DNA of 64,000 bases, from the NCBI RefSeq assembly GCF_009914755.1, contig NC_060935.1; one strand, written 5' to 3'. Numbering within the stretch: position 1 is the first letter of the stretch; every line of letters begins with the position of its first letter. Shown in pieces: positions 11,070 through 31,706 of the stretch. The position numbers and the translations under genes were made by a program. The notes under the pieces are model-generated. The model made no database searches and was not told the DNA's origin. It worked only from the letters and a program-made list of their open reading frames with translations. Source of the DNA: the human T2T-CHM13v2.0 reference genome, Homo sapiens.

Positions 11070-11152
11070 CTTAAGTGTATATCAGTCTCCAATCCATGGG
11101 CTCCATGTTCAACAGCTTTCTCAAAGGACATCATGGTATTCTCAGGCCCCAA
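11070..11152 (-). CDS. GDPD4: GDPD4 exon 10 (83 nt): [27 protein letters not shown](S)
   Basis: ttctacag|TTG ... TTAAG|gtaag; PENT and E-x-D metal-binding motifs. Confidence 0.96.
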
Positions 11153-12495: not shown

Positions 12496-12573
12496 CTCTT
12501 AACCTTGTGATTACATTACATTGCTTGAGTCTTTTTTTCTCAGAATGTGTCATCCTGTATCTTCTCATTCTAA
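12496..12573 (-). CDS. GDPD4: GDPD4 exon 8 (78 nt): (V)RMRRYRMTHSEKKRLKQCNVITRLR(G)
   Basis: attttag|TT ... AGAG|gttaga; phase 1-1, keeps the frame. Confidence 0.9.
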
Positions 12574-21923: not shown

Positions 21924-22017
21924 CAACAGCAATGAAGAGTAGGCAGTCAGGATCCTAGCTAAACTCAGAATAAAAATAGACCAGAAAAACCAGTATCCTG
22001 TTCCTAGAAAAGTGACC
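21924..22017 (-). CDS. GDPD4: GDPD4 exon 4 (94 nt): (W)[31 protein letters not shown]
   Basis: ttttcag|G ... TTG|gtgagt. Confidence 0.95.
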
Positions 22018-26651: not shown

Positions 26652-27703
26652 TAATGAATTTTAACAACGTTTATTCTTCTTGACTCAATAATGCCACTTA
26701 TGGGAATCTATTCTAGGAACATTAGTCAGAATACAAAGATTTATCTGCATTACTAGTTTATAAAAACAAGAAAATTGGACACACATATAATGCCTAACAA
26801 TTAAAAATGGCTAAGTGTATTATAGCATCTGTCATGAAATATTTTTAAACCATTTTAAATGATGTTCATTAGGAGTTTAAAAATTTTGTTAAAATGTTTA
26901 TTATTTTAAGTGAAAAGAGAAAGCAAAATTATGTATACAATATGAGCATAATATAAAAATAAACATAGAAAAATATAACAAGTGATTATCTCTCAAGAGT
27001 GAGACTAGGCAGATACTATATTTTCTAACTTTTTGCATTTTACACATAAAATAACAAACCATGTTTTACTTCTACAAAGAAAACAACAACTGTATTCCAT
27101 TTTTAAAAGCCCCATATCCGAACAGATCCTTCTCCCCCAAATACCAAATAACAAGATTTGCAGGAAGGTTAGAAGACATCAAGCCAGAAAAGGGCTGGGA
27201 ACATTCCAGAGTAGGAGTTTAGCCATGAAAAGGGTACTGGAAAGGGATACCTGTCACTGTGTTCAGAATCGTAGGAAGCCTCCTAAGAACAGCAGGGAGA
27301 GGAAGAGGGTATAGGAGCAGCAGAGAAGGCAGGGTTCAGGGATAGAGATCATGAAGACCAACTAGTGTCAACATCAGTAACTCAAAGAGACTAAAGAAAA
27401 GATACCAGGGAATCATTATCTGAGTAGAAGGACTGTGGATATTGGAAGCATGAAAGCTTCCTACTGAGCCAGATTTAGTCTAAGTATGAGACTGAGCACA
27501 GTGGAAGAAAGTACAATAGGTTAGGGTGCTAAGCATCCTACCCCTGCCCCAGAGGCAGGCCTCTCACCCAAAAGCTGTGGAAAGCCCAGTTTTGTCCGCC
27601 TTCCCTACTATATCACCGGATCTTTTCAGCCTGAGGTAGAATCCAGGTGGCTATCAGACCAAAATACCCTTACACAAATGAAACTACAAAAAGTGAAACT
27701 CAC

Positions 27704-27756
27704 CAGTCAAAGTTAAAGTATTCACTGGATGTTTCTATCCACAGGAACAGCAACAT
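27704..27756 (-). CDS. GDPD4: GDPD4 exon 3 coding part: MLLFLWIETSSEYFNFD(W); whole exon 27704-27806
   Basis: Acceptor ttttcccag|AAAGAG at 27806; ATG at 27756 (context tctctgATGT, weak); donor TG|gtgagt; matches the recalled N-terminus of human GDPD4. Confidence 0.92.
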
Positions 27757-28264
27757 CAGAGACAAGACAAATGAAATTACCAGGCACGGCAAAATAATTG
27801 CTCTTTCTGGGAAAAGAAAAAAGAAATCTAACTTAGCTCCATTTATCCTTGTTACCTCAGCAGTTTCTGTATACACTTGCCAAAGGTCAGCATAGTTGCA
27901 CTGCCATGCATTACCCTCCTGAGGCTGGAGTGATCACTCTCTTCTTTTTACCCCTACCAAATCCTGTATATGCCTATTTACAACCTTTCTTACACTTAAC
28001 TGGAATTATGCATTTATGTTTTATCTGATGCTACACTGTTTCTTCTTTGAGGAAAAGGAACGTCTCTGTATGACCAATACATAGCATTGTTTCTTGAATG
28101 CAGCTGGCTCTCAACAATCATCTGTTGAATTCATCTGCCTCTCCAGCTATCAAATGTTTTGTTCAGTAATTAATTTATTGATTCATTCATCATTAATTGG
28201 TTCATTTAGTCATCAATCTACCCCATTGGAGAAGAAAGGGGGAATCAGAGTTAAAGAATAATTT

Positions 28265-28475
28265 TTTTTAAGTAGCTATTTTGTTCTAGTAAAATGCTAG
28301 GGAATTTCACAAGCTACTTTCATTTGATTTATTTCTCATTAGAGCCATATGAGTTGGGCATCAACCTCATTTTTGCAGAAGAAAGCTCAGAGAGGTAAAA
28401 TAATTGATTCAAGATCACACAGCTAAGAAGTGGCAGGGGCAGGACTAGAACCCAGATCTGTGTAAGCTCAAAGCC
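28265..28475 (-). mobile_element. MIR
   Basis: cattttgcaga...gctcagagaggtaaaataattg...aagatcacacagcta. Confidence 0.75.
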
Positions 28476-29836
28476 AAAATGGAGGTTATCATTATGGAGA
28501 AGGTACTGCTTTCTCTGAAGGCAAAGAAGTCTCCCTGTGTTAGTTTTGTCCTTTTCAATACGTCCTCCACACAATCAAATAATCATTCCAAAACACAGCT
28601 CAGACTACTTCATCAGCTTAAAGTCTTTGGGGATTCTTTATTCCCAACATGGCAGAAGTCAAATTCTTAAAACCACACAACATTGGACCCATCTCCCTCT
28701 CTAGCTTCTTTTCCCCTCACTTCTTCACATTCATATCCTCTCCTTCATCTAAAATAAACCTTGTATCAGTCTCCAAACTCATTATGCCCTTTGACTACTC
28801 CTCCAATACCAATTCTTCCACCATCCCCAATTCTCTACCTATCCAATTCTTAATCACCCATCACCTTCTAAAAGGTGGCCCTCCCCTTGGTATGTGCCTG
28901 TGTACATGCGCATACAGTTACAGCACTTCTCTCACTATATTGAGATTGTGTGTGTACTTATCTTTCCCCACAGTAGACTGAATTCCTTGAGAGCAGGAAC
29001 CATGCCTGAAGCACTTGTATTATCCCCAGTGACTAGCATAGAGGCCGAATATCTGGGCAGGAAAGATACAGTGGGGACAGAAGAACATTCCTTCCTACTG
29101 CAGGGAAACCTCCCATTTCCTACCCCTTTCCTTGTGTTCCCCACCTCAGGTATAAGAAATTAATGACCCAACTGGTCTGATTCTGGGACCCTAGTTGGAC
29201 CATGTTTACAAATAAGTAAAGGTACATGATTTTGCTCTTCTGTTCTCATTTCAGTGTGCTGATCATTTAATCACTTATACCATGTAGCTCACCAAAGGGT
29301 TCCAACATATGGCTTACAAATAGAGGCCCTAAAAAAGGCTAGTCCACGTGCCACCACTCAGCCTTACTAGAGTTCTTCCTCAGGGAAAATCACCACTAGC
29401 TTGACCAATAATAAAGGAGCACCTTGTTTCTCACTTGCTGTTTTTTTCTCCTGCGAAGAGAAATTCACAGAGGAGAGCAAATTACAATTCAGGCATCCCT
29501 GTAATCCGTAACCAAAAATATCTAATTGCACCCAAACATCACTTTTTCTTCAAGATTCACTGAATGAATAAATGCAAAAGTGAATTAATGAATAAACATA
29601 AAAGAGGTAGTAAGGAAAAGTAAAGAATAAAAGTGAAAAATGAAGTGAAGGAAAGAAAATGAAGAAAGCAAGTACATGTTTCAGTAAGTTTAACATTGGT
29701 GCAATACTTTTATGGAAGAAATGGAGCCCTAGCATCCCCAGTCCTGGAGACCATAAAGAGCCCTCATGGGGCCCAGCAGTCAGCCTATGCTCCCCGCATC
29801 TGAGAAAATGTGGTCCAGCTCCTTATCAGTCTGTAC

Positions 29837-30039
29837 CCAAGTGCAGCAACAAAATCCAACTTTAGTTTTTTCCCATTGTCTGAATTTCCAGAGGCAACTA
29901 TAGCAGCCAGTAAGGAAGGTGACAAAGCATTTGTGGTTGAAGATGCGTGGAATCCATGGATTAAGCTTTTTTGGTTTTTCTGTCTTATTCCTCTTGTGCT
30001 CAATCCTGTTGACCTTCTTAAACATGATTCACCCTTTAG
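29837..30039 (-). other. GDPD4: GDPD4 exon 2 (203 nt), nominally 5'UTR; contains an ATG at 30025 opening a uORF that resembles the GDPD N-terminus
   Basis: tctttccag|CT acceptor and TGG|gtacag donor; 63 open codons including FLTGCYSCLWK. Confidence 0.85.
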
Positions 30040-31706
30040 CTGGAAAGACAAATAAAATAATCAGGATCTAGTGTCGCTCCCCTTAATGTACCTTATCCCA
30101 CCATTCTACAGAAAATTTTATCAAAGACAGATGGATTTTTAAAAAACTGTTTATAATCAAAGGTAATATACTGGATTTGGGGCAGAAGAATAGAGTTTCT
30201 TCCTACCTTTCCCTCCCACTAACTTGTTGAGTGTTTACTGTGATCACTGCATCACTCTAGGTTTAGTTTTCTCACCTCTAAAGTGGGACAATATTCCCTG
30301 TCCTCACCAACTAATAAATGCTGAAACAATCAAATTAGATAATATATGCAAACGTGCTTCTCAAATTGCAATATGCTGTTGAAATAACTTGAGACGTTAA
30401 AGGCACGGGTGAGGTACATGAAAATACCATCGTTGACTAATAAGTGACTCAGACACACAGCTGGCTGCTCCTTCCCTTTCTCTCCTCTCCCATATGGAAT
30501 CAGTTAGGGTTAGCTTCAATTATGAATGATGGAATCTTCAAAACAACAATGGCTGAAATGTGACAAGTTTATTTTTCCTTTGCCAACAAAAAATATTTCA
30601 GAGATAGAACAAAATATGTAGCATGTGGCTTCACAATGGCACTAAGAACACAGGCACCTACCACAACCTGCACCTGTGTACATCATCAAGGAGCCTGAGG
30701 ACAGGCCAACATCACCTGGCACTACTACCACCACCAATGCCTACCCACACATGCCAGCTGGGGACCTATAGACTGACCCACCCATCCTATTGCTGTCACT
30801 GCTAGCACCAGTGCATGTTACCTGGGAGACCAAAGATTGGCCCCCTAACACTACTGCCATCGCTGATACCACACATGCTGCCCAGGGCTCCAGGTCCCAC
30901 CCACCTGCCCTGCACACTGCTAACACTGCCAGTACCCAAGCAAGCCACCTAGAGACCTAAAAATTGGCCCACCTCGACCTGCTAACACCAGTGCCTGTGT
31001 ACACTGGCCAGGGGTCCAAGGACAGGAACAATCGGCCTGCCACCACCACCACTGGGGCCTGAGGATTGGCCTGCCTGATTTCCCCATTCCCAGCAAAGTC
31101 TCACCACAGCCTGTGCTAACAACCAGAGCCTAAACCACTGACAAAATCATAGACACCACTGATATTGATTACAGCCAAAGAAATCCCAGGGAGACTATAC
31201 TACTGCATGAACCCAGAATAAAAACTAAAGTGCCCCACCCAACCAACTCTACAGATACATCTACAAGAAAAAAAAATCTTCCCCTATGAAAGCCAACCCA
31301 AAAAATTAGAAAAGGCAACTGTTACAGCAGATGTGCAGATATCAACATAAGGACACAAAAAACATGAAAAAGCAAGGAAACATGACAACTTCGAAGTAAT
31401 GTGATAATTATCCAGCAAGAGATTCCAATGTAAAAGAAATGTGTGAAATGCCTACAAATAATTTAAAATAACAATATTAAATATACTCAATGAGATACAA
31501 GAGAACACAGATAAATAATACAAAGAAATCAGAAAAACAATTCAAAATCCGAATGAGATAATTCAATAAGGAGATATTAGTTCAGAACCTGAAGACAAGT
31601 CATTTGAAATAACCCAGTAAGGTGAAAGAAACAGAAGGAGGGGAGGGGAGGGGAGGGAAGCGGGAGAGAGAAAGAAAGAGAAGGAAAAGTGGAAGGAAGG
31701 AAGCCT

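What the first reader, a model, noticed from the sequence alone, without database searches (positions are those of the whole stretch)
27756..30025. GDPD4 N-terminus is split off by a 1-nt frameshift, leaving a 72-aa homologous uORF
Seen in the sequence: exon 2 has an ATG at 30025 (gaatcATG, A at -3) and 63 open codons (MFKK...FNHKCFVTFLTGCYSCLWKFRQWEKTKVGFCCCTW). It splices in phase 0 to exon 3, reads KEQLFCRAW and stops at TAA 27779-27777. Exon 3 has 50 nt before the main ATG, and the main frame is open and hydrophobic upstream of it (PCLVISFVLSL-MLLFLW). Adding one base near TTATTTTGCCG (about 27790) would fuse both parts and add about 80 aa. From recall, TGCYSCLWK resembles the GDE2/GDPD5 (TGIYGCRWK) and GDE3/GDPD2 (LYSCHWR) N-termini, and mouse Gdpd4 reads through as FLTGCYSCQW...CCCSRKEQF. 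Inference: a lineage-specific or polymorphic deletion removed the Cys-rich cytosolic N-terminus and half of the first TM helix, possibly an incipient gene loss.
Basis: partly seen in the sequence, partly recalled or inferred. Interest (0 to 1): 0.85.

Follow-up and report, generated by a model that had tools for sequence, protein, structure and literature searches.

The report
Human GDPD4 start stranded by frameshift
In the human GDPD4 (GDE6) gene one missing base separates the original start of the protein from the enzyme, so the first start codon now makes only a 72-residue fragment and the annotated enzyme begins inside its first membrane helix.

Summary
ATG 30025 is the first AUG of NM_182833.3. 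It opens 63 codons in exon 2, crosses the junction in phase 0, reads KEQLFCRAW and stops at TAA 27779-27777. That stop lies 20 nt before the annotated ATG (27756), which sits in another frame.

The paralogue comparison supports a net 1-nt loss. GDPD5 and GDPD2 both have a first coding exon ending in phase 0, followed by a 104-nt exon. GDPD4 exon 3 is 103 nt. Alignment places the single gap in the T-run 27791-27794 (codon 5).

The exon-2 peptide carries the GDE2 N-tail motif (LTGCYSCLWKFRQ against LTGIYGCRWKRYQ, E 7e-4). The annotated protein keeps 5 of the family's 6 hydrophobic segments, and the catalytic core is intact.

The likely consequence is that most ribosomes make the 72-aa basic, Cys-rich peptide and stop 73 nt before an exon junction, which makes the mRNA NMD-prone. 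The enzyme would then depend on leaky scanning to a weak AUG or on an alternative donor (Gnomon model).

I could not reach orthologues or population data. I found no paper describing the split.

The parts
29837..30039 (-). Exon 2 of NM_182833.3 (203 nt). It is annotated as 5' UTR but contains the ancestral first coding exon.
   Evidence: Annotation table; sequence; translation.
30023..30025 (-). Ancestral start codon. It is the first AUG of the mRNA, context tgaatcATGt (A at -3, T at +4).
   Evidence: One search lists all ATGs of exons 1-3; exon 1 has none.
29837..30025 (-). Exon-2 part of the uORF: 63 codons ending in phase 0 at the donor TGG|gtacag. The product has 15 K+R, 3 D+E and 6 Cys.
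   Evidence: The only significant match in the human genome is itself (E 7.5e-40; the 5 other matches have E of 0.2 or more).
29876..29914 (-). Residues 38-50 (LTGCYSCLWKFRQ), the conserved juxtamembrane Cys motif shared with the GDPD5 N-tail (LTGIYGCRWKRYQ).
   Evidence: BLASTP 8 of 13 identical, E 7e-4. L38, Y42, C44 and W46 are invariant across GDPD4, GDPD5 and GDPD2.
29843..29851 (-). CCC triplet (residues 59-61) just before the exon junction. It is cysteine-rich juxtamembrane sequence specific to GDPD4.
   Evidence: Reading it as a possible acylation cluster is inference only.
27704..27806 (-). Exon 3, 103 nt. The homologous exon is 104 nt in both GDPD5 and GDPD2.
27777..27806 (-). Exon-3 part of the uORF: KEQLFCRAW plus TAA (27779-27777). 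The stop lies 20 nt before the annotated ATG and 73 nt upstream of the exon 3-4 junction.
27791..27794 (-). T-run where the reading frames switch (codon 5 of the exon). The paralogue alignment places the single 1-nt gap here.
   Evidence: DNA alignment puts the gap at column 14. The protein alignment needs a one-residue gap at position 5.
27757..27804 (-). Main-frame codons upstream of the annotated ATG (RAIILPCLVISFVLSL). From about codon 6 on, this is the front half of ancestral TM1.
27754..27756 (-). Annotated start codon of the enzyme ORF, context tctctgATGt (C at -3, T at +4, weak). It falls inside TM1 at a position that is T in GDPD5 and S in GDPD2.
   Evidence: The next in-frame ATG is codon 83.
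29862..29957 (-). Three further upstream ATGs (29957, 29930, 29876) in the main frame, with ORFs of 19, 10 and 4 codons. The last is in a strong context (acaATGg).
29708..29836 (-). Exon-2 extension used by Gnomon model XM_054368018.1. It has an alternative donor AAA|gtattg at 29708 and a new ATG at 29735-29733. Nine codons and one base continue into the main frame of exon 3 and give a complete TM1.
   Evidence: This is a predicted model; I did not see its transcript support.

Best explanation
Human GDPD4 (GDE6) still carries the family's original first coding exon and start codon. A net loss of one nucleotide in codon 5 of the next exon (T-run 27791-27794) has put them out of frame with the enzyme.

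Shown:
- The first AUG of the mRNA opens a 72-codon ORF. It encodes the cytosolic N-tail, including the Cys motif shared with GDE2, and stops 20 nt before the annotated start.
- The enzyme ORF begins at a weak-context AUG in the middle of TM1. It encodes a protein with 5 of the 6 family hydrophobic segments and an intact GDPD core.

Inferred from established rules of scanning, reinitiation and the 50-55-nt NMD rule:
- Most ribosomes start at the first AUG, make a basic, Cys-rich 72-aa peptide with no membrane helix, and terminate 73 nt upstream of an exon junction. That should expose the mRNA to NMD.
- Only ribosomes that leak past four upstream AUGs, or reinitiate after the short ones, reach the enzyme ORF.
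- The resulting protein lacks the N-tail and half of TM1. In GDE2 the N-tail forms a regulatory disulfide with the C-tail. The truncated protein is therefore likely to fold or traffic poorly.

The human gene is thus most likely a strong hypomorph, or on its way to loss. A minor isoform using the donor at 29708 may supply a 6-TM protein with a new short N-terminus. When the base was lost is not established here.
For: - Coordinates, frames and ATG contexts.
- Exon chain: GDPD5 runs 117(cds)/104/94/60/99/94 and GDPD4 runs 189(orf)/103/94/60/99/94. GDPD2 runs 105/104 and continues in frame into its next exon.
- Gap placement at the T-run: (37 of 104 columns invariant).
- N-tail homology: (E 7e-4).
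- Hydropathy: GDPD5 has 6 segments, GDPD4 NM has 5, and the upstream-extended main frame has 6.
- Intact enzyme: 199 of 522 identical to GDPD5, E 7e-124, HRGAP and PFLMHD kept. PF03009 matches exon 11072-11152 at E 3.4e-7, 31.1 bits, over the cut-off.
- NMD and spacer geometry.
- The 72-aa product has 17 K+R, 4 D+E, 7 Cys and a maximum 19-residue hydropathy of 0.88, so no membrane helix.
- Literature passages:
  - GDE2 is gated by an intracellular disulfide between Cys residues in its N- and C-terminal domains (PMC4432624).
  - GDPD4 is listed among genes with homozygous LoF variants (PMC3868571).
Against: - I could obtain no orthologue sequence, so the ancestral state rests on two human paralogues only. 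The loss could be old and shared widely.
- From recall only, the catalogued mouse (632 aa) and human (623 aa) proteins are similar in length. That fits the same architecture in both species as well as it fits a full N-terminus with a shorter C-tail in mouse.
- The rest of the human ORF shows no decay. This fits either a very recent event or continued function.
- The construct in PMC5576486 was XM_011544834.1. I do not know its N-terminus, so its intracellular location may have another cause.
- Translation, NMD and topology are inferred, not measured.
- The GDPD2 N-tail match is not significant on its own.
Confidence: 0.7

Rival explanations
1. Functional rescue by alternative splicing. The working human mRNA uses the donor at 29708 (as in XM_054368018.1). 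Translation from ATG 29735 then gives a six-TM enzyme with a new 10-residue N-terminus. The gene would be re-modelled, losing only the Cys-rich tail, rather than disabled.
For: - The model is in the RefSeq annotation.
- Its translation is open for 649 aa and regains a strong first hydrophobic segment, IILPCLVISFVLSLMLLFL, score 2.91.
- Both donors are weak by eye: TGG|gtacag and AAA|gtattg.
- The enzyme core is intact.
Against: - It is a Gnomon prediction, and the curated 'select' transcript uses the 29837 donor.
- In this isoform ATG 30025 still comes first and opens an 81-codon ORF ending at 29780, so the enzyme ORF is again downstream of a long uORF.
- I did not see transcript support.
Confidence: 0.2
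2. Old, shared architecture. The 1-nt loss predates mammals or primates, and GDE6 in many species normally starts downstream, so nothing is special about human. The exon-2 ORF is then kept as a regulatory uORF.
For: - No orthologue was examined.
- Recalled protein lengths for mouse and human are similar.
- The exon-2 ORF being still open could reflect selection on a uORF.
Against: - The literature treats GDE6 as a six-TM protein with an intracellular N-terminus (passages in PMC10070723, PMC5576486 and PMC7033719). The human annotated ORF has only 5 hydrophobic segments.
- The 63-codon ORF has 33 of 567 possible substitutions that would create a stop, and it has no frame-breaking indel between the ATG, the motif and the donor. 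By my rough estimate from general neutral rates, this is unlikely to survive about 90 My of neutrality.
Confidence: 0.15
3. Recoding. Ribosomal frameshifting or transcriptional slippage at the T-run joins the two frames and makes the full-length protein.
For: - The two frames overlap at a short T-run.
- Exon 3 folds slightly better than shuffles (z -1.84).
Against: - TTA TTT TGC is not an X XXY YYZ heptamer.
- A -1 slip of the tRNA on TTT would re-pair with ATT. A +1 slip leads to the third frame, not the enzyme frame (read).
- Four T are, from general knowledge, too few for transcriptional slippage.
- 10 of 200 shuffles fold at least as well.
Confidence: 0.02
4. Chance ORF or assembly artefact. 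The 72-codon ORF is a coincidence in a 5' UTR, or the missing base is an error or private variant of this assembly.
For: ORFs of this length are not very rare: 26 of 1108 ATGs, and 265 of 20000 shuffles.
Against: - Homology to the GDPD5 N-tail sits in the right exon, order and phase.
- The curated transcript's CDS starts at the internal ATG, which implies the same frame relation in the transcript record.
- A 4-nt T-run is not error-prone.
- No masked repeat overlaps 27000-30500.
Confidence: 0.03

Closest known systems
GDE2 / GDPD5 (human paralogue, 1.8 Mb away on chr11)
   Same: - Same exon chain and phases.
- 38% identity over 522 columns, with the catalytic HRGAP and PFLMHD motifs.
- Shared N-tail motif L-T-G-x-Y-x-C-x-W-K.
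- Six hydrophobic segments when the GDPD4 main frame is read from upstream.
   Different: - In GDPD5 the N-tail, TM1 and enzyme are one ORF (117-nt plus 104-nt exons). In GDPD4 the 103-nt exon breaks the frame.
- The GDPD4 N-tail is 24 residues longer, very basic, and has a CCC cluster.
- GDPD4 has an extra 78-nt exon coding a basic loop.
GDE3 / GDPD2 (chrX paralogue)
   Same: - First coding exon of 105 nt ending in phase 0, then a 104-nt exon encoding TM1.
- Y-x-C-x-W columns shared.
   Different: - Pairwise similarity of the N-tails is not significant (E 4.0).
- GDPD2 has one continuous ORF.
Human unitary or polymorphic pseudogenes made by a single frameshift (MYH16 and CASP12 are recalled examples, not checked here)
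   Same: A single small lesion separates a once-continuous ORF, and no second copy of the gene exists in the genome.
   Different: - The lesion is near the 5' end, and a downstream in-frame AUG keeps most of the protein annotatable.
- The rest of the ORF is intact.
- The gene is still annotated as protein-coding, and I found no paper calling it a pseudogene.
Regulatory uORFs
   Same: An AUG upstream of the annotated CDS in the same mRNA, terminating 20 nt before the main AUG.
   Different: - It is a relic of the protein's own N-terminus and not a dedicated regulatory ORF.
- It is long (72 codons) and spans a splice junction.
- Its translation is not shown.

Membership tests
Six-transmembrane GDE subfamily (GDE2/GDE3/GDE6) | GDPD catalytic domain (Pfam PF03009) with the catalytic His of the HRG motif | tested here: met
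   - PF03009 matches exon 11072-11152 at E 3.4e-7, 31.1 bits, against a cut-off of 23.6.
- Exon 996-1151 gives E 0.004, below the cut-off.
- GHRGAPM and PFLMHD align with GDPD5; His233 of GDPD5 aligns with His203 of the annotated GDPD4.
- That His233 is the catalytic residue is recalled; PMC5576486 mentions a catalytic His.
Six-transmembrane GDE subfamily (GDE2/GDE3/GDE6) | Six hydrophobic membrane segments in one polypeptide | tested here: not met
   Kyte-Doolittle scan (19-residue window, threshold 1.6): GDPD5 has 6 segments, annotated GDPD4 (NM) has 5, and the Gnomon upstream-extended form has 6. This is a simple hydropathy scan, not a topology predictor.
Six-transmembrane GDE subfamily (GDE2/GDE3/GDE6) | Intracellular N-terminal tail contiguous with TM1 | tested here: not met
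   The tail is encoded, but in a separate ORF that stops at 27779-27777.
Six-transmembrane GDE subfamily (GDE2/GDE3/GDE6) | Shared exon structure and intron phases | tested here: met
   Exon lengths 94/60/99/94, 146, 83, 148 and 83 are identical to GDPD5. The second coding exon is 103 nt against 104 nt in both paralogues.
Upstream ORF (uORF) | AUG and in-frame stop upstream of the annotated CDS in the same mature mRNA | tested here: met
Upstream ORF (uORF) | Evidence of translation (ribosome footprints or peptide) | not testable with these tools
   No Ribo-seq or proteomics data were available. No named database protein of 45-142 aa shares words with it.
Unitary pseudogene / lineage-specific gene loss | Disabling lesion absent from functional orthologues | not testable with these tools
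   - No mammalian genomes are in the collections.
- The length filter of the search for homologous proteins (0.55-1.75 times the query) keeps 520-700 aa orthologues out of reach of any stop-free reference.
- Only the paralogues show the 104-nt state.
Unitary pseudogene / lineage-specific gene loss | Further decay (stops, frameshifts) in the rest of the gene | tested here: not met
   The NM ORF of 520 aa is open and aligns end to end with GDPD5. The only oddity is the stop supplied by a (GATA)5 repeat in the last exon.
Programmed ribosomal frameshift site | Slippery heptamer plus a stable downstream structure | tested here: not met
   There is no X XXY YYZ heptamer at the frame switch. The exon 3 fold has z -1.84, and 10 of 200 shuffles fold as well.

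The most novel reading that the evidence does not exclude
The base was lost recently, in apes or humans only. Human GDE6 would then be an unrecognised gene loss in progress: the mRNA's first AUG makes a free, basic, Cys-rich 72-aa cytosolic peptide that still carries the GDE2-type redox cysteine motif, and the GPI-anchor-cleaving enzyme is made rarely and mis-traffics. This would explain why human GDE6 stays inside cells. It would also mean that chick and mouse GDE6 biology does not carry over to humans.
Probability: 0.3. Interest if true: 0.6.

Novelty: new member of a known kind. Interest (0 to 1): 0.45.

Why it matters
GDE2, GDE3 and GDE6 are the cell-surface enzymes that shed GPI-anchored proteins, and GDE6 is the least studied of the three. 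If the human gene encodes only an N-terminally cut, five-helix protein behind a long uORF, three things follow.

1. Human GDE6 may be largely inactive. This would explain its reported intracellular location.
2. Results from chick and mouse GDE6 may not apply to humans.
3. Reference protein sets carry a start codon inside a membrane helix.

It would also be a clean, datable example of an ancestral coding exon becoming a uORF. The limits are that the gene appears dispensable in mice (no overt developmental or fertility defect in mutants) and that the kind of event is well known.

Tried and rejected
Orthologues
- The search for homologous proteins with the 81-aa genomic ORF (region 1-63) found no candidate. 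That search sees only proteins of 45-142 aa.
- No stop-free reference long enough to reach proteins of 520-700 aa exists around these exons, and a spliced protein may not be typed. I therefore left the other two searches unused.
- PDB and the Atlas gave nothing.
- Scans of microbial and viral contigs for stray mammalian DNA gave nothing useful. There was one Bacteroidales MAG match (L019, 40% over residues 3-32 of a lysine-rich stretch), which I take for chance, and no viral match.
- The control genomes of the genome search are all prokaryotes.

Literature
- Nine searches were run.
- One search was mis-set (min_terms 2 of 6) and returned unrelated papers.
- None of the papers I opened describes the split N-terminus.
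- Two LoF or pseudogene surveys do not mention GDPD4 in their main text.
- Three papers were not held: PMC2748999, PMC9038680 and PMC3644959. The exact GDE2 cysteines (C25 and C576, recalled) and the species of the GDE6 constructs that cleave GPI anchors therefore stay unchecked.
- Supplements are closed. Three could bear on the claims: SI Figs S7-S8 of PMC6744855, Figure 1-figure supplement 1A of PMC5576486, and the variant tables of PMC3868571.

Alternative splice sites
- I read for splice sites that would keep the frame.
- No AG gives an acceptor in the needed phase.
- The one GT in phase 1 in exon 2 would create TAA at the junction.

Other
- Recoding was rejected (and the reading).
- In one search the fifth protein (L015 exon) was sent without checking its frame, so its weak unrelated hit means nothing.
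Full report
WHAT IS THERE

The window holds the 5' two-thirds of GDPD4 (GDE6) on the minus strand. In the curated transcript NM_182833.3, exon 2 is 29837-30039 and exon 3 is 27704-27806, and the CDS starts at 27756. Reading the sequence and translating it confirms each point of the finding.

- ATG 30025 (tgaatcATGt) is the first ATG of the mRNA.
- It opens 63 codons that end exactly at the donor TGG|gtacag, so the junction is phase 0.
- Exon 3 then reads KEQLFCRAW and TAA (27779-27777).
- The annotated ATG lies 20 nt further on, in another frame and in a weak context (tctctgATGt).
- That frame is open upstream through exon 3 (RAIILPCLVISFVLSL) and for 25 codons in the spliced mRNA.
- Three more ATGs in exon 2 open ORFs of 19, 10 and 4 codons.

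IS IT MORE THAN CHANCE

Length alone is weak evidence. 265 of 20000 shuffles of the ORF body stay open, and 26 of 1108 ATGs on this strand of the window have at least 72 open codons. The case rests on homology and gene structure.

Gene structure:
- GDPD5, 1.8 Mb away, has a first coding exon whose 117 coding nt end in phase 0, followed by a 104-nt exon, then exons of 94, 60, 99 and 94 nt.
- GDPD4 has 189 ORF nt, then 103, 94, 60, 99 and 94 nt.
- GDPD2 on chrX has 105 coding nt ending in phase 0, then a 104-nt exon that continues in frame into the next exon.
- Both paralogues therefore have 104 nt where GDPD4 has 103.

Position of the missing base:
- A DNA alignment of the three exons (37 of 104 columns invariant) needs one gap. 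It falls at column 14, inside the T-run 27791-27794.
- The protein alignment of the GDPD4 main frame with the paralogues needs a one-residue gap at position 5.
- Before that point the 30025 frame (K-E-Q-L-F) fits the paralogues (W-E-R-L-W and C-D-C-I-W) better. After it, the main frame (LPCLVISFVLSL...) fits their TM1 (and my reading of it).

Homology of the N-tail:
- The exon-2 peptide matches the GDPD5 N-tail: LTGCYSCLWKFRQ against LTGIYGCRWKRYQ, 8 of 13 identical, E 7e-4 for the single comparison.
- Against GDPD2 the pairwise match is not significant (E 4.0). A three-way alignment keeps L38, Y42, C44 and W46 invariant.
- Elsewhere in the human genome the peptide matches only itself; 5 other matches have E of 0.2 or more.
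- No masked repeat or annotated element overlaps 27000-30500.

WHAT THE ANNOTATED PROTEIN LOOKS LIKE

- In this assembly the NM CDS gives 520 aa.
- It aligns with GDPD5 from residue 3 to 518: 199 of 522 identical, E 7e-124.
- GHRGAPM, the E-T-D motif and PFLMHD are conserved, and one exon passes the Pfam GDPD cut-off on its own.
- Its Met1 aligns with GDPD5 residue 57, inside TM1.
- A simple hydropathy scan finds 6 segments in GDPD5, 5 in the annotated GDPD4, and 6 again when the main frame is read from upstream, as in the Gnomon model.
- The next in-frame Met is codon 83.
- The 72-aa product of the first AUG has 17 K+R, 4 D+E, 7 Cys and no membrane-length hydrophobic stretch.

HOW IT MOST LIKELY WORKS

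The anatomy above is shown. The following is inferred from the scanning model, from what is known about reinitiation after long uORFs with short spacers, and from the 50-55-nt rule for NMD.

- Ribosomes mostly start at the first AUG, which has A at -3. They make the 72-aa tail peptide and stop 73 nt upstream of the exon 3-4 junction, which marks the mRNA for NMD.
- The enzyme ORF needs leaky scanning past four AUGs, one of them in a strong context (acaATGg), or reinitiation after the short ORFs. It then has to use a weak AUG.
- The product lacks the cytosolic tail and half of TM1.
- Loss of TM1 leaves an odd number of helices. Either the short acidic N-terminal stub is translocated, or the topology fails.
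- This agrees with a report that human GDE6 expressed in HEK293 was mainly intracellular, unlike GDE2 and GDE3. It does not prove the point. The construct was XM_011544834.1, whose N-terminus I could not see (passages of PMC5576486).

EVIDENCE ON DISPENSABILITY

- GDPD4 appears in a list of genes with homozygous LoF variants (passage of PMC3868571; the variant itself is in tables I could not open).
- GDE6 is reported to cleave GPI anchors at the cell surface. I have this only as cited in PMC10070723 and PMC11314389. The primary papers are not held, so the species of the constructs is unknown to me.

RIVALS

1. Alternative donor. The donor at 29708 with a new ATG at 29735 (XM_054368018.1) gives nine new codons plus a junction codon and then the main frame, restoring a complete TM1. 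It is a prediction, and the first AUG still opens an 81-codon ORF ahead of it.
2. Old, shared loss. I cannot exclude it, because I obtained no orthologue. My recalled lengths for the mouse and human proteins are compatible with either architecture. Against it, the literature describes GDE6 as six-TM with an intracellular N-terminus. In addition, the exon-2 ORF is intact although 33 of 567 substitutions would create a stop.
3. Recoding at the T-run. There is no slippery heptamer, and the exon folds only slightly better than shuffles (z -1.84; 10 of 200 shuffles fold as well).
4. Chance or artefact. This does not fit the exon-by-exon homology.

COMPARISON WITH WHAT IS KNOWN, AND NOVELTY

The gene is a member of the six-TM GDE subfamily by catalytic domain and exon structure. 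The annotated human protein fails two subfamily features: six helices, and an N-tail contiguous with TM1.

The event is of a well-known kind, a small frameshift that strands an ancestral coding exon as a uORF and truncates the protein. Searches for GDPD4 or GDE6 together with loss-of-function, pseudogene, frameshift, testis or truncation terms, and for three peptide strings, found no paper describing it. I rate it a new member of a known kind, of moderate interest. Interest would rise if the loss proves specific to humans or apes.

LIMITS

- No orthologue sequences, population variants, RNA-seq, Ribo-seq or proteomics were available.
- Supplements were closed.

Noticed in passing
Outside the window: L010 778-797 (chr11:77149877-77149896), last coding exon of GDPD4: A (GATA)5 microsatellite lies in the last coding exon and supplies the TAG that ends the NM_182833.3 CDS in this assembly (520 aa). 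Gnomon model XM_054368018.1 jumps it with a 31-nt GT..AG gap (77149879-77149909) and adds 103 residues. The C-terminus of the human protein is therefore also uncertain.
   Followed up: partly
window 12496-12573 (-): A 78-nt exon with no counterpart in the GDPD5 exon chain encodes a very basic insert ([25 protein letters not shown]) in the loop between the fourth and fifth family helices. It shows as a 26-residue gap in the GDPD5 alignment.
   Followed up: no
G000:C7:57392466-57392615 (-): A match to the start of the Pfam GDPD domain (E 1.6e-11) sits inside a 281-aa open frame on chr7, outside the seven GDPD-family genes listed. It is possibly a retrocopy of a GDPD-family gene.
   Followed up: no
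window 27704-30039 and 21924-22017: Gnomon models XM_054368016.1 and XM_054368017.1 retain intron 2 as one 2336-nt exon, skip the 94-nt exon 4, and start their CDS far downstream at window 13967. This suggests heterogeneous processing of the 5' part of the gene.
   Followed up: no
window 29837 and 29708 (donors): Both donors of exon 2 are poor matches to the consensus (TGG|gtacag and AAA|gtattg). The homologous donors of GDPD5 (CCG|gtgagc) and GDPD2 (AAG|gtggag) look stronger. I judged this by eye only.
   Followed up: no
L019 5001-5105 (Bacteroidales MAG JAGQVE010000018.1): A 40% match to residues 3-32 of the exon-2 peptide, which is a lysine-rich stretch. Its E-value is relative to 118 candidate stretches only, and I take it for chance.
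   Followed up: no
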